The notes below the pieces were generated by a model that saw only the letters and a program-made list of their open reading frames with translations, searched no databases and was not told the DNA's origin. From Escherichia phage CL1: DNA of 64,000 nucleotides. The stretch lies in sequence record OK040806. One strand, given 5' to 3'. Both the position numbers and the translations under genes were made by a program. This document shows, one piece after another, positions 1-58,470 of the stretch; within the stretch, counting starts at the first letter, position 1, and every line of letters starts with the position of its first letter.

Positions 1-4651
<4,651 letters not shown>

Positions 4652-4653
4652 TA

Positions 4654-5802
4654 ATGGCAGTAGGTGAAATTCAAATCAGTGCCTTGCCTCAAGCAGCCTT
4701 ACCAATCGACCTTAGTGATATCTTCCATCTTAAGCAGGGTATCGAGGATAAGAGGTGTACTCTTGAGCAATTACTTGCTCCGCACTCAAGCTTAAAGAAT
4801 AACCCTCATGGTGTTACTAAAACACAAATTGGTTTAGATAACGTTATTAATGCTCTTCAGTTAGTTGCTGCAAATAACTTATCAGATATTGTTAATGTAG
4901 CTGAGGCAAGAGCAAATCTACAGATTATGTCTTCAGAAGAGGTCAATAGCCTTATTCAACAGCATATTAATGACAAGAGCAACCCACACAATACAACTAA
5001 GGCACAGGTTGGTTTAAGTAATGTCCAGAACTGGACAACATCTAACCTTTATAATGAAGATGCAGATAAGTATGCTACAGCAAGAGCAGTAAATAACTTG
5101 TACAAGGCTGTTCAGGCTTCTTATCCAGTAGGTACTATCCATCTCTCTATGAATCCTGCAAACCCCTCTACATATTTAATTTGTGGAGGTACTTGGGAGT
5201 TAGTCTCAAAAGGGAGAGCACTTGTAGGTTATGATAGTGATTCTAGGCCAGTTGGTTCAACGTTTGGTTCACAGACTACTGCACTGACGGTTAATAACAT
5301 CCCTGCACATACCCACTCAGTGTATGTCACTGGTGGTGGTCACACTCATGGTGCAACAGCCTCTATCAGTGCTTTTGATTATGGTACTAAAGGGACTACA
5401 ACGTTTGACTATGGAACCAAGACCGTATCTACTTACGACTATGGCAACAGAACAACAAGTGCTGCTGGCTTAACACAAACAACATTCATTAATCGTGGCT
5501 ATGCTGATGGTGGCTGGAGAGGTTTATCGGTTGAGGGGGCAAGCTATGACCCAAGAGCTACGTTGACAACAGCTAACAACCACACTCACTCTGTAGCAAT
5601 TGGTGCGCATAATCATACGGTTGGCATTGGTGCTCACAGCCATACTGTTGCAATTGGTTCCCACAACCACTCAGCAACAGTAACAGTAACCGGAGCAGGT
5701 GAGCATTCTCACTCTGGCACAACTGGTCCAACTGGTTCTGGTCAAGCATTTAGTGTTGAACAGCCATCCTTCGTACTGTATGTATGGCAGAGAACAGCTT
5801 AA
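4654..5802 (+). CDS. tail fibre protein with C-terminal His-x-His repeat domain
   Basis: 382 aa, Gly/Thr/Ser-rich; C-terminal HTHSV, GAHNHTV, GAHSHTV, GSHNHSA motifs and ...GSGQAFSV...YVWQRTA end shared with the next ORF. Confidence 0.55.
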   Translation: MAVGEIQISALPQAALPIDLSDIFHLKQGIEDKRCTLEQLLAPHSSLKNNPHGVTKTQIGLDNVINALQLVAANNLSDIVNVAEARANLQIMSSEEVNSLIQQHINDKSNPHNTTKAQVGLSNVQNWTTSNLYNEDADKYATARAVNNLYKAVQASYPVGTIHLSMNPANPSTYLICGGTWELVSKGRALVGYDSDSRPVGSTFGSQTTALTVNNIPAHTHSVYVTGGGHTHGATASISAFDYGTKGTTTFDYGTKTVSTYDYGNRTTSAAGLTQTTFINRGYADGGWRGLSVEGASYDPRATLTTANNHTHSVAIGAHNHTVGIGAHSHTVAIGSHNHSATVTVTGAGEHSHSGTTGPTGSGQAFSVEQPSFVLYVWQRTA

Positions 5803-5806
5803 TTTC

Positions 5807-5835
5807 TTTACAGGGGCTTTATAGCCCCTTTTAAG
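5807..5835 (+). promoter_or_regulatory. TTTACA followed by GGGGCTTT-AT-AGCCCC stem-loop and TTTT between the two tail-fibre genes
   Basis: hairpin 5813-5828 followed by TTTT; could be weak terminator or promoter with hairpin in spacer. Confidence 0.4.
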
Positions 5836-10586: not shown

Positions 10587-11102
10587 TTATTTAACCTCAA
10601 AAACTGGTTCAAGAACCAATATAAAGTCTACACAGTCATCTTCTTCATCCAGAATACCATCAAAGTTCTTAGGAACGAAGTCGAAGAGGCTCATAACAAA
10701 GCAGTCAGAAGTAACCCTAATAGTGCCTCCCATATTCTCTACAGTTAGTACTGTACGACTCTCTTTTACCTCTCTCAGAAGATTACTCACAAAGTCATCT
10801 AAGAAGTACTTCATCAACGACTTAAAACCTTTAGGGTAATCTGTACCAGAGTATGTTTCAATCTGAGGTACAAGCTTAACATTTATACTAGTCTTTGTTA
10901 AGAACGTATTAGAGAACATACTATCAGGTAACTTACAAACAATCTTTCCAGTACCTTCATGCTCAATCTCAACAAAACCAGCTTCATCGCCACATGTGAC
11001 TATTTTAAAAGATGCTTCATTCTCACACTGTGAAGCCATAAACTTTTTAAACATCACTTTAAGGAAATCTGCATGAGCATCTTGTAAGAAGATATCAATC
11101 AT
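10587..11102 (-). CDS. hypothetical protein
   Basis: 171-aa ORF co-oriented in minus block. Confidence 0.4.
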   Translation of the reverse strand: MIDIFLQDAHADFLKVMFKKFMASQCENEASFKIVTCGDEAGFVEIEHEGTGKIVCKLPDSMFSNTFLTKTSINVKLVPQIETYSGTDYPKGFKSLMKYFLDDFVSNLLREVKESRTVLTVENMGGTIRVTSDCFVMSLFDFVPKNFDGILDEEDDCVDFILVLEPVFEVK

Positions 11103-13187: not shown

Positions 13188-13796
<609 letters not shown>

Positions 13797-13820
<24 letters not shown>

Positions 13821-38892: not shown

Positions 38893-38901
38893 AACTTTAT
38901 A

Positions 38902-38923
38902 GGGGCTTACAAGCCCCATTTTG
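38902..38923 (+). promoter_or_regulatory. GGGGCTT-ACA-AGCCCC stem-loop between the Prs-like and NAMPT-like genes
   Basis: hairpin 38902-38917 followed by ATTTTG (partial U-tract); same stem sequence family as the cassette hairpins. Confidence 0.45.
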
Positions 38924-44015: not shown

Positions 44016-44045
44016 TTTGACAAGGGGCTTCAAAGCCCCTTAGAA
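44016..44045 (+). promoter_or_regulatory. sigma70-like promoter (TTGACA-18-TAGAAT) with GGGGCTT-CA-AAGCCCC hairpin inside the spacer, upstream of rIIB-like gene
   Basis: TTGACA 44016-44021, hairpin 44023-44038, TAGAAT 44040-44045. Confidence 0.5.
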
Positions 44046-44090
44046 TAGCCTTACAAAATGATTTATTAACTAACAAGAGAGAGTAATAAG

Positions 44091-49263: not shown

Positions 49264-50049
49264 ATGGGTATTGTGAAAATCATCAATGGTGATATCTTTG
49301 CAGCATTTGATAAAGGTAAGTTTGATGTCATCGGTCACGGTTGCAACTGTATGAACTTAATGGGTGCAGGTATCGCTGACAAGATTTCTAAACTTTACCC
49401 AAAAGCATATGAGACTGATACAGAAGTTTATCTGTATGCAGGTGGCATAGGCCACAAGCCCTGTGAGAATTTACTAGGCAATTTCTCTGTAGCACGTTTA
49501 AAACAAGGTCGTATAGCTAACCTTTACACTCAGCTTAAGACTGGTAAAGATGCCCGATACAGTGCTTTAGAGTCATCTTTGAAACAACTTAACAGATACT
49601 GTGAAGTAAATCAGTTGAAGAAAGTTGGCTTGCCTATGATTGGTGCAGGTATCGGTGGGCTAGACCCTCAAGCCGTCACAGTTATCATTAATCAGGTGAT
49701 GAAGAGTGTAGATGTGTATCTGTATGTCTACGAGACAAAGATGTACAACGAGTTACACTCAGGTTGGAAGAACTACTGCGAACCAGAATACTTTGCAGGT
49801 GTAGTAACGTTCACAGACAATACAGTTACCCTCTTCAGACGAAGAAAAGGTAAGATACATCAAAGTAACCCTCCGGTTGAGAAGATGTCTCTAAGTAACG
49901 CTCTAGTTACCCACCTGTCGAAGAGCAATCACAGGATAGCTGTAACATTTGGTAGTGATGCAGATACATATATCTATGCAAGAACTGATGAGGATATCGA
50001 GACGGTCTTCTCTTCACCAGAAGTTACCTTTTTAGGCGCAAAGAACTAA
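49264..50049 (+). CDS. macro-domain-like protein (ADP-ribose binding/processing fold) with C-terminal extension
   Basis: N-terminal INGDIF...DVIGHGCNCMNLMGAGIA and later GLPMIGAGIGGLDP resemble the two Gly-rich macro-domain motifs; ~100-aa unknown extension. Confidence 0.45.
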   Translation: MGIVKIINGDIFAAFDKGKFDVIGHGCNCMNLMGAGIADKISKLYPKAYETDTEVYLYAGGIGHKPCENLLGNFSVARLKQGRIANLYTQLKTGKDARYSALESSLKQLNRYCEVNQLKKVGLPMIGAGIGGLDPQAVTVIINQVMKSVDVYLYVYETKMYNELHSGWKNYCEPEYFAGVVTFTDNTVTLFRRRKGKIHQSNPPVEKMSLSNALVTHLSKSNHRIAVTFGSDADTYIYARTDEDIETVFSSPEVTFLGAKN

Positions 50050-50080
50050 GAAAATCTGTATAATATTCACAATAGACTAA

Positions 50081-50126
50081 GCCTTTCTTATCTGGTAAAT
50101 TTTTTCAGGTAAGGAGGGCTTTTTTT
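50081..50126 (+). terminator. long-stem intrinsic terminator after macro-domain gene
   Basis: GCCTTTCTTATCTG / CAGGTAAGGAGGGC 14-bp stem (three G-U) followed by TTTTTTT. Confidence 0.55.
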
Positions 50127-50320
50127 ATTTCAAGATTGTGCAGGTAGAGTTCTGTAGAGAAATCTGTAGAGAGAATTTTGAACTCCAAAGAGAAAATTCA
50201 TTTTCAAACTGTGCAGGTAATCTCCAAAGAGCTTTTTCATTTTCAAAACGTGCAGACCCCGCTCAGGTCGGGCAAGAAAAATCATTTTAGAATTGTGCAG
50301 GTAGGTGGGTGCAGGTGGGA
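50127..50320. repeat. four direct repeats of ~20 bp (consensus ATTTTCAAANTGTGCAGGTA), two inside tandem 40-bp units
   Basis: copies near 50127, 50199, 50238, 50283 plus GTGGGTGCAGGTGGG; tandem 40-bp units 50181-50220 and 50221-50260. Confidence 0.6.
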
Positions 50321-50479
50321 ATGTCGCCATTTCTCACAAGGCTACCACATCTGGAAATAAAAGTCAACAGAAAAATTTGTAGCGGATTGAAAAATAATTC
50401 TTGATTGTAGTTCTGTTTTGTGGTAGTCGCGCGCACCCGTTTCATTACAATTTTGCAAAAAATATTTTTAAAATTCCTA

Positions 50480-50508
50480 TTGACTCTTTGAGTATGGTTA
50501 TCTAATAT
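50480..50508 (+). promoter_or_regulatory. sigma70-like promoter TTGACT-17-TAATAT heading the small-gene array
   Basis: TTGACT 50480-50485, 17-bp spacer, TAATAT 50503-50508; ~45-nt leader with GGAG SD before ATG 50559. Confidence 0.6.
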
Positions 50509-50558
50509 TTGCATCAGACGGGCAAGCCAGCCCACTTCCTAAACTGGAGAATCTAAAA

Positions 50559-50765
50559 ATGCTTTACAGTCGCGAATTGATGGTTACAACTAACGTTAAC
50601 ACAGGTGTAAAACGTTTCTACATGCAAATCTGCGGCGTATGGTCCAGAATATCAGAAGATGACTATTGCAACTATGTAGGAACGGCTATTAATTCTAATT
50701 GCTATCTGACAAGAAACACTAAGAAATTTACAAGGCAGACAGCGATTTACTACTACGACAAATAA
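50559..50765 (+). CDS. hypothetical small Cys-containing protein (array gene 1)
   Basis: 68 aa; consensus promoter at 50480 and AGGAG-type SD upstream. Confidence 0.4.
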   Translation: MLYSRELMVTTNVNTGVKRFYMQICGVWSRISEDDYCNYVGTAINSNCYLTRNTKKFTRQTAIYYYDK

Positions 50766-50822
50766 AGTACTTTACAGGGGGCTTAAAAGCTGATATCTTA
50801 AGCCCCAGATAAAGAGCTTTAC
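50763..50822 (+). promoter_or_regulatory. cassette A copy 1: TAAAGTACTTTA palindrome, -35 TTTACA, inverted repeat GGGGGCTTAA-N11-TTAAGCCCC enclosing -10 (TATCTT), then ATAAAGAGCTTTAC
   Basis: TTTACA 50771-50776, 17-bp spacer, TATCTT 50794-50799; IR 50777-50806. Confidence 0.5.
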
Positions 50823-50853
50823 TAAATTAACCCTTAAACTAGGAGATTCAAAA

Positions 50854-51234
50854 ATGGCTTATCGTGCACCGAAATTCATCAACAAAGACAACTTCCGCAA
50901 CGCACTGGAGAAGTCACTTGATGAAAAATTTAACGGCAAATTGATTGTTGTTCACGCATTCAATTTTAAGTATGATATTAACGGGAATAAAATCAACCAT
51001 TACACGGCAACCATGTTAGATGGTACGCTATCAAGTGAAAAAGCCGTACTGAATGCACTTGCAGGACGTGGTAAAAACCTGATAAGATGCGATAAGAGAC
51101 GTTATCAGGGTGGCGCATATGGTTATGATGATGCTGTTTATCATCTTGAAAATATGGGCTATTCAGTGGAAAAAGCTGGAGTGTCTCAAATAATCGGCAG
51201 TGATGGTTATGTAACAATCTTCAAAATTAACTAA
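50854..51234 (+). CDS. hypothetical protein (array gene 2)
   Basis: 126 aa; preceded by cassette A and conserved GGAGATTCAAAAATG initiation region. Confidence 0.45.
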   Translation: MAYRAPKFINKDNFRNALEKSLDEKFNGKLIVVHAFNFKYDINGNKINHYTATMLDGTLSSEKAVLNALAGRGKNLIRCDKRRYQGGAYGYDDAVYHLENMGYSVEKAGVSQIIGSDGYVTIFKIN

Positions 51235-51294
51235 TAAAGTACTTTACAAGGGGCTTATAGTTCGATAAAGTAAGCCCCAGATAAAGAGCTTTAC
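51235..51294 (+). promoter_or_regulatory. cassette A copy 2 (GGGGCTTA-N13-TAAGCCCC; -10 TAAAGT)
   Basis: palindrome 51235-51246, TTTACA 51243-51248, TAAAGT 51266-51271, IR 51250-51278. Confidence 0.5.
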
Positions 51295-51322
51295 CACTAA
51301 ATCCTAAATTGGAGATTCAAAA

Positions 51323-51580
51323 ATGGCTATCATCAAAAACGTTGTAATTACTGCAAAGACTCGTGATGACGCTCGCATCATGGCGAAAAAGTTAGGCGGG
51401 AAAGTGGTTGACAACGGAAAACAATCTGCTGTAAGATGGGGCGTGAAGGCTGATAAAAAGTTAACCTTAAAACGCAGTTCAAATAACCTCTTTAAAGGTG
51501 TAAAATCACTCGGTAAAGTGAACGTGTTTACTAAACAAGGTTACAAAATGCACTTATCATTAACTGGCAATTTAATCTGA
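51323..51580 (+). CDS. hypothetical basic protein (array gene 3)
   Basis: 85 aa; cassette A upstream. Confidence 0.45.
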   Translation: MAIIKNVVITAKTRDDARIMAKKLGGKVVDNGKQSAVRWGVKADKKLTLKRSSNNLFKGVKSLGKVNVFTKQGYKMHLSLTGNLI

Positions 51581-51640
51581 TAAAGTACTTTACAAGGGGC
51601 TTATAGTTCGATAAAGTAAGCCCCAGATAAAGAGCTTTAC
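51581..51640 (+). promoter_or_regulatory. cassette A copy 3 (identical core to copy 2)
   Basis: palindrome 51581-51592, TTTACA 51589-51594, TAAAGT 51612-51617, IR 51596-51624. Confidence 0.5.
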
Positions 51641-51669
51641 TAACTAAATCCTAAACTGGAGATTCTAAA

Positions 51670-52182
51670 ATGAAAACTGTAGACGCTACCTTTGAAGTTG
51701 TAAAAGAAAAATTCACCATTATTTATGAAGCTGTCAATTGCTTTGAAGCAAGCCATAATCTTGATAATTGGAAGTTTACAGATGACCATCAAGGCGGCGT
51801 GACGATTAAAAATCCTAACTGTCAGAGTAATGAATTTAAATATGCAATCCCTTTGCATTACAGCCTTAAGCAGCTTTCAAGTGACTATGCAAAACAAGGC
51901 CGTGAGAATCCATCGAAAGAGGCTTACACGAGCTTACAGAAAGAACTAGAAAGGGATTTAGAGGCTTCAGAGTATAACATTGCCGCGAAAGTTGTAGATG
52001 CAAACGGTAGCACGGTTTTAGAGAGTTTTTATATTGGTTATGCTTTCGATTGGTGCTACAGTGACGGCGATGATTTAGATGACAGACTAAAAGAGGAAGT
52101 GAACAACGCAGACGCAGAATCTGAAGTATTAGAACGCTTGGAAGCATTAAAAGATTCAGTGATGAATATCTTTAAGAACTAA
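51670..52182 (+). CDS. hypothetical acidic protein (array gene 4)
   Basis: 170 aa; cassette A upstream. Confidence 0.45.
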   Translation: MKTVDATFEVVKEKFTIIYEAVNCFEASHNLDNWKFTDDHQGGVTIKNPNCQSNEFKYAIPLHYSLKQLSSDYAKQGRENPSKEAYTSLQKELERDLEASEYNIAAKVVDANGSTVLESFYIGYAFDWCYSDGDDLDDRLKEEVNNADAESEVLERLEALKDSVMNIFKN

Positions 52183-52184
52183 AT

Positions 52185-52242
52185 AGATTTCTTTACACGG
52201 GGCTAACAAGCGGATATGATAGCCCCAGATAAAGAGCTTTAC
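52185..52242 (+). promoter_or_regulatory. cassette A copy 4 (variant IR GGGGCTA-N14-TAGCCCC; -10 TATGAT)
   Basis: TTTACA 52192-52197, TATGAT 52215-52220, IR 52199-52226 with compensatory stem change. Confidence 0.5.
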
Positions 52243-52270
52243 TACTAAATCCTAAACTGGAGACTCTAAA

Positions 52271-52567
52271 ATGAAATTATCGAATAAAGTTCGTGAAAAC
52301 CTTAGTAAATTACTCAACAAAATTGATTTTATCGAGACATCAAGAAATAATCATGATGTTATGGAATGGTTGCACGGCAAAATAAAAGGCCGTCGCGTAG
52401 TGATTTGCTTATGGAATAGTTGCAGGGAGTATAAAAAGCCTGTATTGCAAATTAATGTTTATGATGATACTTTTAAAAGTCCTGTAAAGTCTAAAAGCGA
52501 TTTATTAGAATCCTATGAGATAACTGTAAATGGCAAAGTATCACGTAAAGAGGAAACACCATGTTAA
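52271..52567 (+). CDS. hypothetical protein (array gene 5)
   Basis: 98 aa; cassette A variant upstream. Confidence 0.45.
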   Translation: MKLSNKVRENLSKLLNKIDFIETSRNNHDVMEWLHGKIKGRRVVICLWNSCREYKKPVLQINVYDDTFKSPVKSKSDLLESYEITVNGKVSRKEETPC

Positions 52568-52893
52568 TGACTGGTATCACTGCAATCATTGCCATTTTCG
52601 CGCTATATAAGGCATATAAAGCCTATAATCTAGCAAATAAGGCAATCACACAGCAAGTTAGTAATAACCTTGTAGAGAGCTTTCTAGGGCGTTTAAGTGA
52701 TGAGCAAATAAAGCGGCTAGAGATGAGCTTCAGATATAAAGCGAAAACCTATCAGATAAGTGACATCTTCAAAGAGGATTTTCAGCTTGTCGATGATTAT
52801 AACTCACTGATAAATGCTTTAAATATCAGTGACTTAAAAGATTATTACGCTGTAATTGTCCAAGAACTGAACAAACGAAAACAAAACTGTTGA
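52561..52893 (+). CDS. hypothetical membrane-anchored protein (array gene 6)
   Basis: 110 aa; N-terminal TM helix (MLMTGITAIIAIFALY); overlaps previous gene (ATGTTAATG); no cassette of its own. Confidence 0.4.
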   Translation: MLMTGITAIIAIFALYKAYKAYNLANKAITQQVSNNLVESFLGRLSDEQIKRLEMSFRYKAKTYQISDIFKEDFQLVDDYNSLINALNISDLKDYYAVIVQELNKRKQNC

Positions 52894-52945
52894 CACTGAT
52901 TTTTAGATAACCTAAATTACTAATCAACGGGAGGGATGACCTCCC
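52890..52945 (+). promoter_or_regulatory. cassette B copy 1: promoter TTGACA-17-TAAATT plus 5' leader stem-loop GGGAGG-GATGA-CCTCCC
   Basis: TTGACA 52890-52895 (overlaps upstream stop), TAAATT 52913-52918, hairpin 52929-52945, conserved leader to ATG 52980. Confidence 0.55.
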
Positions 52946-52979
52946 ACTAAACAAAGTCCTTAAACTAGGAGATTCAAAA

Positions 52980-53252
52980 ATGTATACTACTAATAACGGT
53001 CGTACTCTAAATGTAACTTTGCGCCACTATGTTAACGGCGTGATGCACTTTGAAGATTTACAAGCTGAACAACATATCTTAGATTGGCAACTTGCAGGAC
53101 TACAAAAAACTGCTACAGGATACGGGAAAAAGATTCCAACTAGTTGGAAAGTATACTATGAAGGGCGTTTGCGCAGAATTTATCAAGATGTATACAGCAA
53201 TAGCGCAACAAGTTACATCATGGTAAAAGGTAAAAAATTACACTTAGTATAA
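52980..53252 (+). CDS. hypothetical protein (array gene 7)
   Basis: 90 aa; cassette B upstream. Confidence 0.45.
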   Translation: MYTTNNGRTLNVTLRHYVNGVMHFEDLQAEQHILDWQLAGLQKTATGYGKKIPTSWKVYYEGRLRRIYQDVYSNSATSYIMVKGKKLHLV

Positions 53253-53309
53253 AGTACTTTACAAGGGGCTTATAGTTCGATAGAGTAAGCCCCAGATAAA
53301 GAGCTTTAC
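53250..53309 (+). promoter_or_regulatory. cassette A copy 5 (-10 TAGAGT)
   Basis: palindrome 53250-53261, TTTACA 53258-53263, TAGAGT 53281-53286, IR 53265-53293. Confidence 0.5.
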
Positions 53310-53338
53310 TACTCAATCCTAAATTGGAGAACTTAAAA

Positions 53339-53743
53339 ATGGCTATTAATAACCGTGAGTTATCAATCTTAAAAGCACGTTTGACCGTTAACCGGATTAA
53401 TGTTATTACGTCATCAGCACCGGACGAAACATTACACAACATTATTGGGAAGATTCAAAGTGTTATCTTAGACGTTGAAAGCGTAAAAAACTCATTGGCT
53501 GACGTTGCAGCAGGTATCACGCTAGACGGTGCACAATATGAAATGGCTGACATGTTAGGCAAATCAAAGGTAATGAATAAAGAGCTTGATTTAAAAATGT
53601 TCCGTTTTGCCGTGAAAGTGTGGCTATCTGTCGAGTATGACGCAAATTTTGCAATCGCTGACTTTTTCGCAACATGGTTGCAACGTAATTTAACAAATTA
53701 TGATTTTCGTGATATCTGTGACGCAATTTACGCAGAACTCTAA
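53339..53743 (+). CDS. hypothetical protein (array gene 8)
   Basis: track start is TTG; ATG at 53339 sits at the conserved distance from the cassette A SD. Confidence 0.45.
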   Translation: MAINNRELSILKARLTVNRINVITSSAPDETLHNIIGKIQSVILDVESVKNSLADVAAGITLDGAQYEMADMLGKSKVMNKELDLKMFRFAVKVWLSVEYDANFAIADFFATWLQRNLTNYDFRDICDAIYAEL

Positions 53744-53752
53744 AAAATTTTA

Positions 53753-53808
53753 TTGACACTGATTTTTAAAACAAGTAAATTACTAATCAACGGGAGGGAT
53801 GACCTCCC
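53753..53808 (+). promoter_or_regulatory. cassette B copy 2
   Basis: TTGACA 53753-53758, TAAATT 53776-53781, hairpin GGGAGG/CCTCCC 53792-53808. Confidence 0.55.
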
Positions 53809-53842
53809 CACTAAGTAAAGTCCTTAAACTAGGAGATTCAAA

Positions 53843-54043
53843 ATGGCTATTATCAACGGTTTAAACATTGAAACTACTCATATCAAAGATATCAAAGTTG
53901 GCGATGTAGTCCTTTCCCACGGCGTAGAAAAAACTGTCACTGCAAAGGATATTAAAGAGGATTCTTTCATGGGTAGGACTCTCTTCGGTGATTCTTATTG
54001 CTTAGGTTATCTTGCAGTTTTAAAAGTTGTCAAAAATAACTGA
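53843..54043 (+). CDS. hypothetical protein (array gene 9)
   Basis: 66 aa; cassette B upstream. Confidence 0.4.
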   Translation: MAIINGLNIETTHIKDIKVGDVVLSHGVEKTVTAKDIKEDSFMGRTLFGDSYCLGYLAVLKVVKNN

Positions 54044-54103
54044 TAAAGTACTTTACAAGGGGCTTATAGTTCGATAAAGTAAGCCCCAGATAAAGAGCTT
54101 TAC
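54044..54103 (+). promoter_or_regulatory. cassette A copy 6 (-10 TAAAGT)
   Basis: palindrome 54044-54055, TTTACA 54052-54057, TAAAGT 54075-54080, IR 54059-54087. Confidence 0.5.
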
Positions 54104-54138
54104 CACTAAATCAAGTCCTTAAACTAGGAGATTCAAAA

Positions 54139-54702
54139 ATGAAATGCTATCACGGAACTACACTCAAAAACTTTGTAAACCTGCTGAATGGTGGCGATAA
54201 GCCTGAAGGTATCTGGAACTGTTCCTACATGGACGATTGTTTCTATGTTTACCCAATGAATAAGGTTATCAAAATGGGATGTCTGGAAGATGAAGAAGAT
54301 TCTTACATCCGTGAACGCTGCATTCAAAGTGCCTTAGAGTCGGGGCTTATTACGGCTGCTTTCCAAATGGAAACGCAGGACGTGATTGTTATTGAAATGG
54401 ATATCCCAGAGGAAGAACTAGAGGACGATTATTCTTGTGACAACATGAGCGAAATTGCCAGCTTTACCGGATACTTTGATAAAAATTGGATTGTTAGCAT
54501 CCACTCAACGAAATTTAGTGCGATGTATGCACCTTTCTTTGTACCTGATACGAAAAACCGCAACTTGGGATATGTTGACGATGATTTGTTGAGTATTGCA
54601 AAAATTGTACAGAATAGCGGTGATAGTTCCGTGTTTTGTGACCTACTGGATAAAATCACGGAAAACCTCACAGAACGCAATTTAAAGGACTTTTTAGGAT
54701 AA
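54139..54702 (+). CDS. hypothetical protein with ADP-ribosyltransferase-like N-terminal motif (array gene 10)
   Basis: 187 aa; N-terminus MKCYHGTTLKNFVNLLNGG resembles the [FY]HGT NAD-binding strand of H-Y-E-class ARTs, Tyr cluster SYMDDCFYVY follows; motif-level only. Confidence 0.35.
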   Translation: MKCYHGTTLKNFVNLLNGGDKPEGIWNCSYMDDCFYVYPMNKVIKMGCLEDEEDSYIRERCIQSALESGLITAAFQMETQDVIVIEMDIPEEELEDDYSCDNMSEIASFTGYFDKNWIVSIHSTKFSAMYAPFFVPDTKNRNLGYVDDDLLSIAKIVQNSGDSSVFCDLLDKITENLTERNLKDFLG

Positions 54703-54765
54703 GCAGTACAAAGACACCAACTTTTAACTTAAGGCCCACACAGGGCCATTTAGAGGGCTTCAAAC

Positions 54766-54999
54766 ATGCTTACAACCGTTTATCTTATCCTTTCTATTTG
54801 TAATGGTCATTCATGTGATTTTAAAGGGCTTGAGGAGTTTACAGGAAGTAAAGAAAATGCCGTTCAGGTCTGTCAGATAGCAAGACAAGACTACCCCGCC
54901 AGTGATGATATACAATGTTACTTTAAGACAGAAGATGAAGAGGGTATCTATTTCGATAGTGTAGACGGGCAATATGAAATTATCATTGAAAAAGACTAG
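54766..54999 (+). CDS. hypothetical protein (array gene 11)
   Basis: 77 aa; hydrophobic N-terminus; no cassette, short hairpin upstream. Confidence 0.35.
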   Translation: MLTTVYLILSICNGHSCDFKGLEEFTGSKENAVQVCQIARQDYPASDDIQCYFKTEDEEGIYFDSVDGQYEIIIEKD

Positions 55000-55053
55000 A
55001 CAAGCCTGATAAAAGTCTGTAAATTGTCAATCAACGGGAGGCGATAACCTCCC
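54997..55053 (+). promoter_or_regulatory. cassette B copy 3 (-35 TAGACA; loop CGATAA)
   Basis: TAGACA 54997-55002, TAAATT 55020-55025, hairpin 55036-55053. Confidence 0.5.
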
Positions 55054-55088
55054 AACTAAACAAAGTCCTTAAACTAGGAGATTCAAAA

Positions 55089-55430
55089 ATGGCTTATGTA
55101 ACCGTAATTACCAATAAAGAAGATTCATCTTGGTCAACTCAAGTAAGCGATAAGATGTCACCTATGCAGTGCCTAAAATACTTTGAGCAATGGAACAAAG
55201 GCGAGGATACCAGCCCCTTTCAAGTGATGCAGATTATCCATACAGATAACGAAGGGAATAAAACTGTTTTGAATAGTGAGTACTATGCAACCAGATTCGA
55301 AACGAGAAGTAAAGCAATGAAGCTCTTACGTGAATCCGGTTATTCTCATATTGCCGCGCTAATCTGGGATGACCTGCTAAAAAATCAGCGTATCAGCTAC
55401 GTAAAACCTGAAAAAATATTCATCAGTTAA
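55089..55430 (+). CDS. hypothetical protein (array gene 12)
   Basis: 113 aa; cassette B upstream. Confidence 0.45.
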   Translation: MAYVTVITNKEDSSWSTQVSDKMSPMQCLKYFEQWNKGEDTSPFQVMQIIHTDNEGNKTVLNSEYYATRFETRSKAMKLLRESGYSHIAALIWDDLLKNQRISYVKPEKIFIS

Positions 55431-55559
55431 TCAATAACTTACAAAAAACTTTTAAAAAAGTGTTGACAATACCCCTTGACATTGGTAACTTTGTTCGAGG
55501 GGGTTTATCTAAAAGGGATTAACTTAAAAGATTCTTTATAGATAAACTTAAAAAATTGC

Positions 55560-55621
55560 TTGCAATCAGATATCAAAACAAGTAAATTACTAATCAACGG
55601 TGAGGGAATGAACTTCCTCAC
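55560..55621 (+). promoter_or_regulatory. cassette B copy 4 (-35 TTGCAA; compensatory stem GTGAGGGA/TTCCTCAC)
   Basis: TTGCAA 55560-55565, TAAATT 55583-55588, hairpin 55600-55621; extra TTGACA boxes at 55463 and 55476. Confidence 0.5.
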
Positions 55622-55653
55622 TAAATAAAGTCCTTAAACTAGGAGATTCAAAA

Positions 55654-56184
55654 ATGAACAAATTTCAAGCTATCAACTACATTCGCTCAAATGCTGTAAT
55701 GTCTAAGCCTGTTAAAGATACCTATGAATTTCGCTGCAATGGGGTACACTTTGCAACCATTACCAAATCAGAAAACGGGGTTTATTACATTCATCGCCGT
55801 AATGTTTATACTGTTGTAGTCTCTCACTTTATGAAAGCTGTAGCGGAATTATTACCGTTATTCTTAGAGATTTACTTGGATGAGTGTAAAAACGTTCATA
55901 GCCACGTTAAAAACCTTTTAAATAGCTATAAAATGGCTTATGAACGTTCAATCAAGTCCTTAAACAAGTTCTATAAAGCCCCTGTAAATACTGTTTCAAT
56001 GGCCTACGCTGCAAATGGTGAAAGAGTAAGACTATCCGATGTGGAAGATATCGAGCTTTACGACCATCGCCCTAACGGTTACTCTCAGACCCTCGGTGAA
56101 GGTTTAACGTTCAATATCAAGAACTTAGAAAAAACTTTAAAAGATATTGAAAAAGATATTGACGAGACAATCAAAAATCTGTAA
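55654..56184 (+). CDS. hypothetical protein (array gene 13)
   Basis: 176 aa; cassette B upstream after a 223-bp spacer. Confidence 0.45.
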   Translation: MNKFQAINYIRSNAVMSKPVKDTYEFRCNGVHFATITKSENGVYYIHRRNVYTVVVSHFMKAVAELLPLFLEIYLDECKNVHSHVKNLLNSYKMAYERSIKSLNKFYKAPVNTVSMAYAANGERVRLSDVEDIELYDHRPNGYSQTLGEGLTFNIKNLEKTLKDIEKDIDETIKNL

Positions 56185-56214
56185 ATTATCAATCAACGGG
56201 AGGGATAACCTCCC
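56159..56214 (+). promoter_or_regulatory. cassette B copy 5 (-35 TTGACG, inside 3' end of upstream gene)
   Basis: TTGACG 56159-56164, TAAATT 56182-56187, hairpin GGGAGG-GATAA-CCTCCC 56198-56214. Confidence 0.5.
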
Positions 56215-56249
56215 TACTAAGCAAAGTCCTTAAACTAGGAGTTATCAAG

Positions 56250-56522
56250 ATGGAACACGTCGAACTGACCACACTTTTACAAATTGCAACCGACAAAGAG
56301 GATGTAGCATTATTCCACCGCATCGAAAGTGATTTATTCAATGGTGAAATCATTAAAGAATCTTACGAAGTTGTCGGATTCAAAGACGGTAAAGCGTTCG
56401 GATTCTTTGACCTCGACAAAGGCAAAGCGGTTACAAAATATGATGTTTTATCTTGTGAGATTCTTACAAAATACAACGAAAAAAAGGCTTGCAACATACG
56501 CCAACATGCAGTAAATTACTAA
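56250..56522 (+). CDS. hypothetical protein (array gene 14)
   Basis: 90 aa; cassette B promoter embedded in 3' end of previous gene. Confidence 0.45.
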   Translation: MEHVELTTLLQIATDKEDVALFHRIESDLFNGEIIKESYEVVGFKDGKAFGFFDLDKGKAVTKYDVLSCEILTKYNEKKACNIRQHAVNY

Positions 56523-56544
56523 TCAACGGGAGGGATAACCTCCC
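56489..56544 (+). promoter_or_regulatory. cassette B copy 6 (-35 TTGCAA, inside 3' end of upstream gene)
   Basis: TTGCAA 56489-56494, TAAATT 56512-56517, hairpin 56528-56544. Confidence 0.5.
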
Positions 56545-56579
56545 TACTGAATAAAGTCCTTAAACTAGGAGATTCTAAA

Positions 56580-56828
56580 ATGGCAACTATCCGCGCAACT
56601 ATCAATGCTTATGGCTGTTATACTCTGGACGTTAAATTTGATATTGGTGGAACTGATGAATGCTTTTCATTAGTGAAGACAGTTATCAAGCAAGTTATCC
56701 CAGATTATAACCCTACTGATGACTTCTGGAAAGATGCTGTAAAAGAGGCATTAAACGATGAGCATCACTATCATTACTGGGGTGACTTGATTGTCTCCCT
56801 GTACTACAATAAACAAGGTTACAACTAA
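56580..56828 (+). CDS. hypothetical protein (array gene 15)
   Basis: 82 aa; cassette B upstream; followed by terminator. Confidence 0.45.
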   Translation: MATIRATINAYGCYTLDVKFDIGGTDECFSLVKTVIKQVIPDYNPTDDFWKDAVKEALNDEHHYHYWGDLIVSLYYNKQGYN

Positions 56829-56838
56829 TCGACGCAGC

Positions 56839-56888
56839 GGGGCTAAATAGCCCCAGATACCTTTACAGCCCCTTAAATGGGCTTTTTT
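56839..56888 (+). terminator. array-terminal hairpin pair: GGGGCT-AAAT-AGCCCC then intrinsic terminator
   Basis: hairpin 56839-56854; second stem AGCCC-loop-GGGCT 56867-56883 followed by TTTTTT. Confidence 0.6.
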
Positions 56889-58470
56889 ACGTCTTATTAA
56901 ATCCTTTCCCTTTCCTTTCCAGAATCTTACTAGACCTTAAAAGCAATAACTCTATAGTCTACTCTATAGCCTTTTATCAAATCAACTTAAATATAAGCCC
57001 ATAACCCGAAAGGGAAGGGCAACCATTTAAACGCTCTATAAAGCCCTATAACAGCCTTATCAACCTAACTTAAGGGATTGCATTACTCCACGCTTAAAAG
57101 CTCTTTATAAAGCTTCTCAGAGCCTTAAAAGAATCTTATAAGGGTGTAAGCTTTATCATCTCGTTAGTATCTTGTGAATAACTAAAAAGGGCTTGTTAGT
57201 GTCTTAAAAGTATGTTATAGGGGCTATAAAGTTGCTTAAAAGTTGCTATAAAGTTACGTAAATGCTAGCCCCCTTAACATTTTCTTAACAAATTTTTAAC
57301 AATCCCTACATAGTTATGCTTTTAAGGCACTTGTTAACAACTTGTTAGCCCCTTGTTAAATCTCTGTTAAGACCACGTAAAAGCCTTGTAAGAGTCTTTG
57401 ACATAGCCTTAAAAGCTCCTGTAAAGCCCTATAAAGAGCTTTCTATATAGTTGGGGTGCAATTACTAGGGAGAGGCTTAAAAGAGCTTACAAAGAGCTAT
57501 AGAGAGCTTTTAAGAGGGCTATTTAAAGGGTCACTAAGAGGGAAAGGGAACTATAGACCAAGAGATAGTGACCATGTTAATAGCTTGTTAAAAAGATTAA
57601 ACACTTGTTAGGAACTTGTTAATTATCTTAACAAAATAACTCTTAAAAATTAACTTGTTAGCTCTTGTTAGTCATCTGTTAAGACTCTGTAAAGCCTACG
57701 TATCAACTGTTAAAAAACTGTTAAGCTCTTGTTAGTTCTGTTAAGAATCTGTTAAGACCTCTGAAGAGATGTTAAGAAGATGTAGCAACTGTTAAGAGAT
57801 TGTTAATGATATTTTAAAATTTTGCAAAGGGGATGTTACAGGGATGTTAAGGGCTACCAAGCAGATATATATCTTCTACAGATATTTTTGAGTTCCTTCA
57901 AAGACCCTAAAAAATGACTTGATAGCTCTATTTTATAAAAATTTTAAAATTCTGAATAATTACCTAGACAGTCTTTTAAAAATACAGGTAGAAACAGGCT
58001 TATAAGATACCTTGTTAGTACCGTGTTAGACCTTGTGAGATAAGGTCTGTAAAGATATTCCTGTTAAGTTTGCTAAAACAGTCTATATAGAGGCTTAGTA
58101 TTTCCTAGTGAACACCTATAGAGAGTGTCATAGCTGACATAGAGATTAAGAGGTGTATAGGAGCTTCTAAGAGGGTATAGAGGGATGGTTAAGGTGATTG
58201 TATAGGTTGTTAAGAAGGCTTGTTAGAAGAGTGTTTAAAGGGCTTGTTAGAGGGTTATTTAGAAGGCTTATACAGAGGGGCTATTAAGACCACTAGATAG
58301 TGACTAAGATACTATATAGTACTATATAACTATATAGAGAGTAAGATTAAGAAGGTTGTTAAGAAGGGTAGATATTTTATTCACATATGATGGTGACCCA
58401 GAGGTTGGGACAACCGATGAAATTTTATAAAAATTAAAAAGCCCCCAATTAAGGAGGCTCTTAAGATATT
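56889..58470. repeat. 1.6-kb ORF-free region dense in short degenerate repeats
   Basis: no ORF of 60 aa or more on either strand; >30 copies of YTGTTAR often phased ~11 bp (57330-57830); CTTAAAAG/CTATAAAG family (56930-57300); ACTATATA x3 (58308-58340); lies between convergent blocks. Confidence 0.7.

What the first reader, a model, noticed from the sequence alone, without database searches (positions are those of the whole stretch)
50763..54103. Cassette A: promoter whose spacer and -10 lie inside a conserved inverted repeat, flanked by TAAAG-NN-CTTTA sites
Six copies of: perfect palindrome TAAAGTACTTTA overlapping a -35-like TTTACA; inverted repeat GGGGCTTA-N13-TAAGCCCC; then ATAAAGAGCTTTAC. 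Seventeen bp after TTTACA there is always a -10-like hexamer (TAAAGT, TATCTT, TATGAT, TAGAGT) inside the variable loop. Variant copies keep the stem by compensatory change (GGGGCTA/TAGCCCC). The element could be an RNA hairpin ending the upstream transcript, a promoter for the downstream gene, or an operator for a dimeric regulator. The same TTTACA-18-TAAAGT pair occurs on the minus strand at 13791-13820.
Basis: seen in the sequence. Interest (0 to 1): 0.7.

Follow-up and report, generated by a model that had tools for sequence, protein, structure and literature searches.

The report
Promoter-plus-hairpin cassettes between phage early genes
A 60-base unit repeated six times between small early genes of a Felix O1-like phage most likely acts as a host-type promoter in the DNA and as one long hairpin in read-through RNA, and it marks the joints where related phages gain and lose genes; this matches the "PeSL" cassettes already described in T4-like phages.

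Summary
Six same-strand copies lie at 50762-54103, each between a stop codon and a conserved leader, Shine-Dalgarno site and ATG. The window is a Felixounavirus, 100% identical to Escherichia phage C600M2 over the query.

Across 152 distinct copies from four Ounavirinae genera, TTTACA is followed at 17-18 bp by TAnnnT. The T, A and T are fixed, the three middle bases vary freely, and half the copies carry TGn. This is the signature of a sigma-70 promoter.

The two "TAAAG-NN-CTTTA sites" are not separate operators. They pair with each other. G-to-T upstream goes with C-to-A downstream, which breaks each local palindrome but keeps the cross-pairing. The cassette is therefore one roughly 60-nt hairpin: a lower stem of 11-13 bp, a 3x3 internal loop and an upper stem of 8-9 bp, with the -10 in the apical loop. 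There are 147 G.U cells against 7 A.C cells, which points to the plus-strand RNA.

The hairpin has no U-tract, so it is not a canonical terminator. Gene-sized indels between related phages join exactly at the cassettes.

Best reading: a PeSL-type composite cassette in a new phage group. The role of the hairpin is inferred, not shown. The minus-strand site at 13791-13820 is at chance level.

The parts
50762..50822 (+). Cassette A copy 1. Lower-stem 5' strand 50762-50774; -35 TTTACA 50771-50776; upper stem 50778-50785 and 50799-50806; TGn plus -10 TATCTT 50794-50799; predicted start near A50807; lower-stem 3' strand 50810-50822. Followed by the leader and ATG at 50854.
51234..51294 (+). Cassette A copy 2. 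-35 at 51243-51248; upper stem 51250-51257 and 51271-51278; -10 TAAAGT 51266-51271; lower-stem 3' strand 51282-51294; ATG at 51323. Together with the ORF 51323-51580 it forms an indel unit that is absent from contig L028.
51580..51640 (+). Cassette A copy 3. -35 at 51589-51594; -10 TAAAGT 51612-51617; ATG at 51670. The ORF 51670-51182... that follows it (51670-52182) is absent from contig L043.
52183..52242 (+). Cassette A copy 4, a variant and chimera. The upstream arm is ATAGATTTCTTTA (AGATTTC class); -35 at 52192-52197; 7-bp upper stem GGGGCTA 52199-52205 and TAGCCCC 52220-52226; -10 TATGAT 52215-52220; the downstream arm 52230-52242 is of the common GAGCTTTAC class; ATG at 52271.
53249..53309 (+). 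Cassette A copy 5. -35 at 53258-53263; -10 TAGAGT 53281-53286; ATG at 53339.
54043..54103 (+). Cassette A copy 6. -35 at 54052-54057; -10 TAAAGT 54075-54080; ATG at 54139. Contigs L001 and L026 carry an extra ORF plus a second cassette at this joint.
50823..50853 (+). Conserved leader (…TAAAyTrGGAGAttCAAAA-ATG) that follows every cassette A and cassette B copy. This is the example after copy 1. It is part of the repeated unit and of the recombination target.
50480..50508 (+). Promoter-like site TTGACT-17-TAATAT at the head of the array. It would supply the read-through RNA in which the copy 1 hairpin can form.
   Evidence: sequence match only
56867..56892 (+). Canonical hairpin-plus-U-tract terminator that closes the array of small early ORFs. 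It contrasts with the cassette hairpins, which have no U-tract.

Best explanation
Cassette A is a composite regulatory and recombination cassette of the PeSL type. It works at three levels.

1. **Promoter in the DNA.** It is a host sigma-70 early promoter: -35 TTTACA, a 17-bp spacer, often TGn, then -10 TAnnnT. The predicted start is at the conserved C/A just 3' of the upper stem. The mRNA has a 5' UTR of about 45 nt, predicted to be unstructured, ahead of the next small ORF.
2. **Hairpin in read-through RNA.** When RNA polymerase arrives from an upstream promoter, the same 60 nt folds in the plus-sense RNA, directly after the upstream stop codon. The fold is one long hairpin: a lower stem of 11-13 bp, a 3x3 internal loop, an upper stem of 8-9 bp, and an apical loop of 11-13 nt that carries the -10. 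This hairpin marks off each gene's RNA. The most likely roles are a processing site of RNase III type, a 3'-end stabiliser, or an attenuator. It is not a classical intrinsic terminator.
3. **Recombination target.** The roughly 90-bp repeat (cassette plus leader) supplies the homology at which small ORFs of unknown function are inserted, deleted and swapped between related phages.

**Shown here:** the sequence anatomy, the conservation pattern, the covariation, the strand polarity and the indel joints.
**Inferred:** promoter activity, the start site, and what the hairpin does.
For: - **Promoter.** Among 82 aligned distinct copies, the -10 T and A carry 2.0 bits each and the final T 1.9 bits. 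The three middle positions carry 0.1-0.4 bits. G at -14 is present in 71 of 82. Of 152 distinct copies, 148 keep TAnnnT at 17 bp (142) or 18 bp (6), using 14 different hexamers. 75 have TGn. 150 are followed by an SD and a start codon, and 151 are preceded by a stop codon within 16 nt. One-base length changes fall outside the spacer. Felix O1 ORFs 16 and 20, which follow that phage's two copies, are maximally expressed at 5 min (PMC3185647).
- **Hairpin.** The 64-nt RNA folds at -21.6 kcal/mol with z = -5.2, and every variant class gives the same fold. 97.4% of cells are paired. The covariation score is 0.090 against 0.060 in shuffles (0 of 500 reach it). Slid registers give 31-57% pairing. 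Double changes occur at lower-stem pair 6-56 (G-C 62, U-A 11), upper-stem pair 19-43 (G-C 78, U-A 3, the latter in Erwinia phages), pair 2-60, and upper-stem positions 7 and 8 (T-A 74 / A-T 22; A-T 71 / T-A 17). G.U cells number 147 against 7 A.C cells. The U.G pair of the lower stem becomes C-G or U-A in several copies.
- **Shuffling.** L028, L043 and L045 lack one or two window ORFs, with a single cassette left at the joint. L001 has an extra ORF flanked by cassettes. 75 of 99 homology-block ends fall in the intergenic cassette zones, against 25% expected. All flanked ORFs are of unknown function.
- **Match to PeSL.** The architecture fits the published PeSL description (PMC2839356).
Against: - There are no transcript-end data for any Felix O1-like phage in the searchable literature. 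Promoter activity and the start site are therefore inferred.
- The -10 hexamers match TATAAT at only 4-5 of 6 positions, and the -35 lacks the consensus G.
- The last T of the -10 is also a stem base, and TTTA of the -35 lies in the lower stem. Part of their conservation could therefore come from the structure.
- CTTTAyA followed by a short GGGGCT…AGCCCC hairpin also occurs with no -10 at 5806-5828 and 38895-38917. CTTTACA is thus not always part of a promoter.
- Many copies were found with a pattern that fixed TTTACA and AGATAAAGAGCTTTA, which inflates the apparent invariance of those segments.
- Copies are related by descent and recombination. Shuffle statistics and the binomial test therefore overstate independence.
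- The G.U polarity fits a hairpin in the non-template DNA strand as well as one in RNA.
Confidence: 0.7

Rival explanations
1. The cassette is an RNA-only element. The 60-nt hairpin is a processing, stabilising or attenuating signal in one long early transcript, like the RNase III sites between T7 early genes. The promoter-like hexamers would then be incidental, or conserved for recognition of the loop.
For: Covariation and G.U polarity support a plus-strand hairpin. Its geometry, with two stems around an internal loop and about 20-22 bp in all, resembles the five T7 early RNase III sites folded. A promoter at 50480-50508 could drive the whole array. CTTTAyA plus a short hairpin occurs without a -10 elsewhere in the window.
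Against: An RNA loop has no known reason to fix exactly T, A and T in a TAnnnT frame, held 17-18 bp from TTTACA, with TGn in half the copies. Other intergenic units in the same array keep -35/-10 pairs but place the hairpin elsewhere: cassette B, and the 44017-44046 site. The T7 site coordinates come from memory, and the large 11-13-nt apical loop differs from the 4-5-nt loops in T7.
Confidence: 0.12
2. The cassette is an operator array. A dimeric phage or host regulator binds the two TAAAG-NN-CTTTA palindromes, and perhaps GGGGCTTA/TAAGCCCC, to switch the early promoters off.
For: The sequences are palindromic and flank the -35 and the start region, which are classic repressor positions. CTTTA, TAAAG and the unpaired AGA are invariant beyond what pairing alone requires.
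Against: The AAATTGC and AGATTTC classes, which go with GAGATTTAT, break each local palindrome while keeping the pairing between the upstream and downstream elements. The two sites lie 47 bp apart, on opposite faces of the helix. The motif occurs only inside cassettes in this 64 kb. The asymmetry between G.U and A.C cells is not expected for a symmetric DNA site.
Confidence: 0.05
3. The cassette is a DNA-level structure. The 60-bp inverted repeat extrudes as a cruciform or single-strand hairpin that a phage recombination or junction-cutting enzyme targets. Its main role would then be to promote cassette exchange.
For: Indel joints coincide with cassettes. The PeSL authors speculated that GGGG…CCCC might be a target for a recombination protein (PMC2839356).
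Against: The complementary strand would carry an A.C mismatch in nearly every copy. A 13-nt central spacer disfavours extrusion (general knowledge). Plain homologous recombination between 90-bp repeats already explains the joints, and it does not explain the TAnnnT pattern.
Confidence: 0.08
4. The cassettes are passive repeat remnants with no function, spread by duplication.
For: Copies within one genome are nearly identical.
Against: The cassette is retained in four genera, including Erwinia phages, with compensatory stem changes, a position-specific conservation pattern, and a fixed placement between stop codon and SD-ATG.
Confidence: 0.03

Closest known systems
PeSL (promoter-early stem-loop) cassettes of T4-like phages RB49/phi1, PST and nt-1 (Arbiol et al. 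2010, PMC2839356; Comeau et al. 2014, PMC4122927)
   Same: - The layout is the same: an upstream stop codon in an AT-rich stretch, sigma-70-like -35/-10, a stem-loop with a G-run and a C-run lying between the boxes or over the -10, G-T pairs in the stem, then SD and ATG.
- Both are clustered among small ORFs of unknown function.
- In both, gene-sized indels between close relatives join at the cassettes (searches compared).
   Different: - The host phages belong to a different subfamily (Ounavirinae), and the cassettes share no sequence with published PeSLs.
- The pairing extends into a second, lower stem. This stem covers part of the -35 and positions of about +4 to +16, giving a hairpin of roughly 60 nt with covariation in both stems.
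- The hexamers are further from consensus.
- Promoter activity, terminator activity and mini-circles were shown experimentally for PeSLs and not here.
RNase III processing sites between phage T7 early genes (R0.3, R0.5, R1, R1.1, R1.3)
   Same: - Both are intergenic hairpins between successive early genes, with an upper stem of about 9-10 bp, an internal loop and a lower stem of 5-9 bp.
- The T7 RefSeq record places the minor E. coli promoter C at 3113, inside the R1 hairpin region. A host promoter overlapping such a hairpin therefore has a precedent.
   Different: - There is no sequence similarity to the T7 consensus (…AAGGUC…GGCCUUUAUGAU).
- The apical loop is 11-13 nt against 4-5 nt in T7, and the internal loop is symmetric (3x3).
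- Cleavage was not tested.
- The T7 site positions were taken from memory of Dunn & Studier 1983.
The 57-bp direct repeat listed in the Felix O1 genome paper (Whichard et al. 2010, PMC3185647)
   Same: It is the same element: CTTTACATGGGGCTTAAAAGTCTGTAAAGTAAGCCCCAGATAAAGAGCTTTACCACT, between genes 15/16 and 19/20.
   Different: The paper reported it only as a direct repeat. It was not listed among the promoters or terminators, and no structure or function was proposed. Public records that annotate regulatory sites in this region do not mark it either.
Intrinsic (Rho-independent) terminators
   Same: Both have a G+C-rich stem-loop just after a stop codon.
   Different: The tail after the stem is AGAUAAAG, or CACUAAAUCC after the full hairpin. 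There is no U-tract, and the terminator scan does not report it. True terminators with U-tracts sit at both ends of the array.

Membership tests
PeSL-type composite cassette | Sigma-70-like -35 and -10 hexamers 16-18 bp apart | tested here: met
   TTTACA, then 17 bp (142 copies) or 18 bp (6 copies), then TAnnnT, in 148 of 152 distinct copies. TGn is present in 75. This is sequence evidence only.
PeSL-type composite cassette | Stem-loop with a G-run and a C-run overlapping the promoter, between the boxes or over the -10 | tested here: met
   GGGG(C/T)TTA and TAAGCCCC flank the -10. The fold is stable and the stem covaries.
PeSL-type composite cassette | Begins at the upstream gene's stop codon in an AT-rich stretch and ends with SD and start codon | tested here: met
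   151 of 152 copies have a stop codon within 16 nt upstream. 150 of 152 are followed by SD and a start codon.
PeSL-type composite cassette | Clustered in a variable region of small ORFs of unknown function, with indels between relatives joining at the cassettes | tested here: met
   No Pfam hits, and only PHROGs families of unknown function. The joints are shown. 75 of 99 block ends fall in cassette zones.
PeSL-type composite cassette | Demonstrated promoter activity and attenuator/terminator activity, and mini-circle formation | not testable with these tools
   This needs reporter fusions, end mapping and inverse PCR.
PeSL-type composite cassette | Found in T4-like myoviruses (the original scope of the term) | tested here: not met
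   The window and all related loci are Ounavirinae: Felixounavirus, Mooglevirus, Suspvirus and Kolesnikvirus. This limits the label, not the mechanism.
Intrinsic terminator | G+C-rich hairpin followed directly by a U-tract | tested here: not met
   The tail is AGAUAAAG, and the scan does not list it.
RNase III processing site (T7 early type) | About 20 bp of double-stranded RNA, commonly two stems around an internal loop | tested here: met
   A lower stem of 11-13 bp, a 3x3 loop and an upper stem of 8-9 bp. The shape is comparable to the folded T7 sites.
RNase III processing site (T7 early type) | Cleavage by RNase III, and dependence of the RNA ends on the host rnc gene | not testable with these tools
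   This needs in vitro cleavage or end mapping in an rnc mutant host.
Palindromic operator for a dimeric regulator | Each palindrome conserved as a self-symmetric unit, usually with further sites in the regulon | tested here: not met
   Variant classes break each local palindrome but keep the pairing between the upstream and downstream elements. No site lies outside the cassettes in the 64 kb.
Any curated RNA family (Rfam 15) | Match to a covariance model | tested here: not met
   No match at E <= 1 over 49500-57500 on either strand.

The most novel reading that the evidence does not exclude
The cassette may be a dual-route module that gives every small early gene the same mRNA 5' end by two paths. 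One path is initiation at the embedded promoter. The other is cleavage of read-through RNA in the conserved AGA internal loop of the long hairpin, for example by host RNase III, which would also leave the upstream gene's RNA capped by a protective 3' hairpin. Each inserted gene would then be expressed and insulated in the same way wherever recombination places it. A related reading is also not excluded: the hairpin forms in the non-template DNA strand and couples promoter firing to upstream transcription.
Probability: 0.2. Interest if true: 0.65.

Novelty: new member of a known kind. Interest (0 to 1): 0.4.

Why it matters
Transcription control in Felix O1-like phages is poorly understood. These phages are widely used for Salmonella typing and biocontrol. 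The Felix O1 genome paper states that how transcription passes the many terminators, and how it is timed, is not known.

Recognising these repeats as promoter-plus-hairpin cassettes has three consequences:

- It supplies candidate early promoters for a block of unannotated genes.
- It explains why this block differs between otherwise near-identical phages.
- It shows that the PeSL design, so far described in the papers read here only for T4-like phages, recurs in a separate myovirus subfamily.

The covarying lower stem is a concrete, testable addition to that model. The cassette is also a compact part of about 90 bp that could be used to insert genes into these phages.

Tried and rejected
- **Intrinsic terminator:** rejected. 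There is no U-tract and the terminator scan does not list the hairpin.
- **Two independent palindromic operators:** rejected on the cross-compensating variants, and because the motif is absent elsewhere in the window.
- **T4 MotA-box reading:** GCTTTA in the downstream element, followed by TAAAyT 11-13 bp later, was considered from memory. It was dropped because that -10 would start the transcript inside or after the SD. In addition, the Felix O1 paper reports no T4-type proteins that change RNA polymerase promoter specificity (PMC3185647).
- **Host-derived repeat (REP-like):** no match in 5,426 complete E. coli genomes.
- **Known RNA family:** none.
- **Minus-strand site at 13791-13820 as a seventh member:** rejected as a chance match.
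- **Literature:** no transcript-end study of a Felix O1-like phage was found, and no paper links PeSLs to these phages. The wV8 genome paper does not mention promoters or repeats. The phiEa21-4 genome paper could not be read.
- **Metagenome scan for more divergent stems:** it returned the same family plus two unrelated matches, L059 and L060.
- **Protein-level tools** (homology search, structure prediction) were not used, because the element is non-coding.

Full report
**Identity of the window.** The stretch 50500-54400 is 100% identical to Escherichia phage C600M2 (Ounavirinae, Felixounavirus). It is 88-94% identical to many other Felix O1-like phages. In that record the cassette region lies downstream of rIIA/rIIB and a macro-domain gene. 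It sits in a run of fifteen small genes annotated as hypothetical. Ten of their products have no Pfam match and fall only in PHROGs families of unknown function.

**The observation.**
- Six plus-strand copies are present.
- Five are near-identical. They carry TAAAGTACTTTA, TTTACA, GGGGCTTA-N13-TAAGCCCC and AGATAAAGAGCTTTAC.
- The copy at 52183-52242 has ATAGATTTCTTTA upstream and a 7-bp stem GGGGCTA/TAGCCCC.
- The component motifs are far above chance: 5 found against 0.00 expected for the stem pattern, and 11 against 0.11 for TAAAGNNCTTTA.
- Every copy starts at or over the stop codon of the upstream ORF. Each is followed by a conserved leader, a GGAG Shine-Dalgarno site and ATG.

**Wider family.**
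- An exact-pattern scan of viral contigs, followed by a profile search, gave 178 copies, 152 of them distinct.
- Blast shows the cassette in 288 phage records. These include Suspvirus, Mooglevirus (Citrobacter phages Mordin and Moogle) and Kolesnikvirus (Erwinia phages, Hafnia phage).
- Copies were read from Mordin, Ea_Tu10, phiEa21-4 and M7.
- The cassette is absent from 5,426 complete E. coli genomes and matches no Rfam family.

**Promoter evidence.**
- In an alignment of 82 distinct copies, the apical-loop columns are variable except for two invariant columns, T33 and A34. Three near-random columns follow (0.22, 0.10 and 0.37 bits), then T38 at 1.9 bits. This is TAnnnT.
- G at -14 is present in 71 of 82 copies and T at -15 in 47 of 82.
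- Over all 152 copies, 148 keep TAnnnT at 17 bp (142) or 18 bp (6) from TTTACA. They use 14 different hexamers, and 75 carry TGn.
- The class that is one base shorter has lost the base 3' of the -10, not in the spacer.
- TTTACA is also the -35 of the lac promoter (my own knowledge).
- A start 7-8 nt after the -10 falls on the conserved C/A step at the 3' foot of the upper stem. It gives a 5' UTR of 42-48 nt that is predicted to be unstructured. The start site is inferred.
- The only experimental hint comes from Felix O1. ORFs 16 and 20, which directly follow that phage's two copies, are among the ORFs maximally expressed at 5 min (PMC3185647).

**One long hairpin, not three separate symmetries.**
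- The 64-nt RNA folds into a lower stem of 6+5 bp, a 3x3 internal loop, an upper stem of 9 bp and an 11-nt loop. The energy is -21.6 kcal/mol and z = -5.2.
- The two 'TAAAG-NN-CTTTA sites' are the two strands of the lower stem.
- The decisive evidence comes from variant classes. Upstream AAATTGC or AGATTTC goes with downstream GAGATTTAT. Upstream position 6 changes G to T, and downstream position 8 changes C to A.
- Each local palindrome is thereby broken, but the cross-pair is kept: G-C in 75 distinct copies and U-A in 12, or 62 and 11 in the tool count.
- The pure AGATTTC/GAGATTTAT class has an unbroken 13-bp lower stem, at -27.6 kcal/mol and z = -7.9.
- Window copy 4 joins an upstream arm of that class to a downstream arm of the common class. 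This is what recombination inside cassettes would produce.
- In the upper stem, Erwinia phages have GGTGTTTA/TAAGCACC (G-C changed to U-A at position 3). Another class has GGGGTTAT/ATAGCCCC, with positions 7 and 8 swapped.
- On the whole structure, 97.4% of cells pair. The covariation score is 0.090 against 0.060 in shuffles (0 of 500 reach it). Slid registers give 31-57% pairing.
- These statistics overstate independence, because the copies are related.

**Strand.** Within the helices there are 147 G.U cells against 7 A.C cells. The near-universal U.G pair in the lower stem is converted to C-G (4 copies) or U-A (5 copies) in some copies. The structure is therefore selected on the plus strand. 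That strand is the sense of the mRNAs and also the non-template DNA strand.

The 5' strand of the lower stem lies upstream of the predicted start. The full hairpin can therefore exist only in RNA that reads through from an upstream promoter, where it forms the 3' UTR of the preceding ORF. A promoter-like site at 50480-50508 heads the array.

**What the hairpin does is not settled.**
- It is not a canonical terminator, because its tail is AGAUAAAG. Terminators with U-tracts stand at both ends of the array, at about 50080-50130 and at 56867-56883.
- Its size and two-stem shape resemble the RNase III sites between T7 early genes, which I folded for comparison (site positions from memory).
- The T7 RefSeq record places E. 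coli promoter C at 3113, inside the R1 hairpin region. A host promoter overlapping such a hairpin therefore has a precedent.
- I rank processing, 3'-end protection or partial attenuation above full termination. This ranking is inference.

**Recombination joints.**
- Contig L028 lacks the ORF 51323-51580, L043 lacks 51670-52182, and L045 lacks two ORFs. In each case a single cassette remains at the joint.
- L001 and L026 carry an extra ORF and a second cassette at copy 6.
- Across all related loci, 75 of 99 homology-block ends fall within the intergenic cassette zones, against 25% expected. The events are not independent.

**Comparison with what is known.**
- The layout is stop codon in AT-rich DNA, sigma-70 boxes, a GGGG…CCCC stem-loop over the -10 with G-T pairs, then SD and ATG. 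The setting is an ORFan-rich variable region with indels at the cassettes. Together this is the published definition of PeSLs in T4-like phages (PMC2839356; PMC4122927).
- The same window also holds other arrangements. One is a hairpin inside the spacer of TTGACA-18-TAGAAT, between rIIA and rIIB (44017-44046). Another is cassette B, whose hairpin begins just after the predicted start. This mirrors the PeSL subclasses.
- The Felix O1 genome paper printed this 57-bp repeat only as a direct repeat. No paper in the searchable library connects PeSLs with Felix O1-like phages. Annotated records do not mark it.
- What differs from published PeSLs is the phage group, the covarying lower stem that spans part of the -35 and the first transcribed bases, and the weaker hexamers.

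**Verdict.** The feature is real and functionally constrained. It is best filed as a new member of the PeSL kind, with an extended hairpin. Its interest is moderate.

Noticed in passing
window 50050-50558: A 509-bp non-coding stretch precedes the cassette array. It starts with a strong terminator-like hairpin plus T-run (about 50080-50130). It then holds 3-4 direct repeats of about 21-34 nt ending in TGTGCAGGTA, spaced 39-84 bp apart, and it ends with TTGACT-17-TAATAT at 50480-50508. It could be iterons, an origin, or a regulatory region.
   Followed up: partly
window 52890-52979, 53753-53842, 54997-55088, about 55590-55653; partial copies at 56185-56249 and 56523-56579: A second repeated intergenic unit, 'cassette B'. 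It consists of TTGACA-17-TAAATT, then ACTAATCAAC, then a GGGAGG-GAUGA-CCUCCC hairpin that begins a few bases after the predicted start, then the same leader, SD and ATG. Two downstream copies keep only the hairpin and leader. The AYO145A record annotates this unit as a promoter. Felix O1 lists it as a 39-bp repeat.
   Followed up: partly
window 44017-44046: Between rIIA and rIIB lies TAAAGTGTTTGACA-A-GGGGCTTCAAAGCCCC-T-TAGAAT. This is a near-consensus promoter (11 of 12 matches) whose 18-bp spacer is almost entirely a GGGGCUU/AAGCCCC hairpin with the same arms as cassette A.
   Followed up: partly
window 5806-5828 and 38895-38917: Short GGGGCT-loop-AGCCCC hairpins directly preceded by CTTTACA or CTTTATA, with no -10 hexamer at promoter distance. 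One lies between the two tail-fibre genes. The other lies between the ribose-phosphate pyrophosphokinase and nicotinamide phosphoribosyltransferase genes. Each is followed by a weak T-rich tail. They may be decayed cassettes or attenuators within operons.
   Followed up: no
window 56839-56892: At the end of the array the sequence reads GGGGCTAAATAGCCCC-AGATACCTTTAC-AGCCCCTTAAATGGGCT-TTTTTT. This is a short cassette-like hairpin with the CCCCAGATA junction and a TTTACA, fused to a canonical terminator.
   Followed up: no
L047 1105-1225 (Citrobacter phage Mordin): Two cassette A copies lie in direct tandem with no ORF between them. The second starts at CTTTACA, right after the first copy's …GAGCTTTACCAA. 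This may be the footprint of a gene loss that did not collapse to a single cassette.
   Followed up: no
L048 11424-11470 and 12078-12120 (Erwinia phage Ea_Tu10): Further promoter/hairpin composites with unrelated stems. In one, GGGGC-TTTACA-GCCCC plus a T-run holds the -35 in the loop of a true terminator, with TATACT 17 bp downstream. In the other, TTGACA-18-TAAAAT has the -10 in the loop of GGGGG/CCCCC.
   Followed up: no
L053 (phage T7) 2703-2749: The T7 RefSeq record puts the minor E. coli promoter C (record position 3113) inside the hairpin that I folded as RNase III site R1. This is a precedent for overlap of a host promoter with a processing hairpin.
   Followed up: partly
window 4654-5802 compared with L052 4650-5798: ORF coordinates in the left part of the window are shifted by 4 nt relative to the C600M2 record when the offset from the 50500-54400 match is applied. 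The window and that record must therefore differ by a small indel somewhere between about 5.8 kb and 50.5 kb.
   Followed up: no
L059 about 11051-11098 and L060 about 3887-3934 (metagenome contigs): Two related contigs match CTTTACA…CCAGATAAAGAG but have no stem between the two parts and sit in a different context. These are probably chance matches.
   Followed up: no
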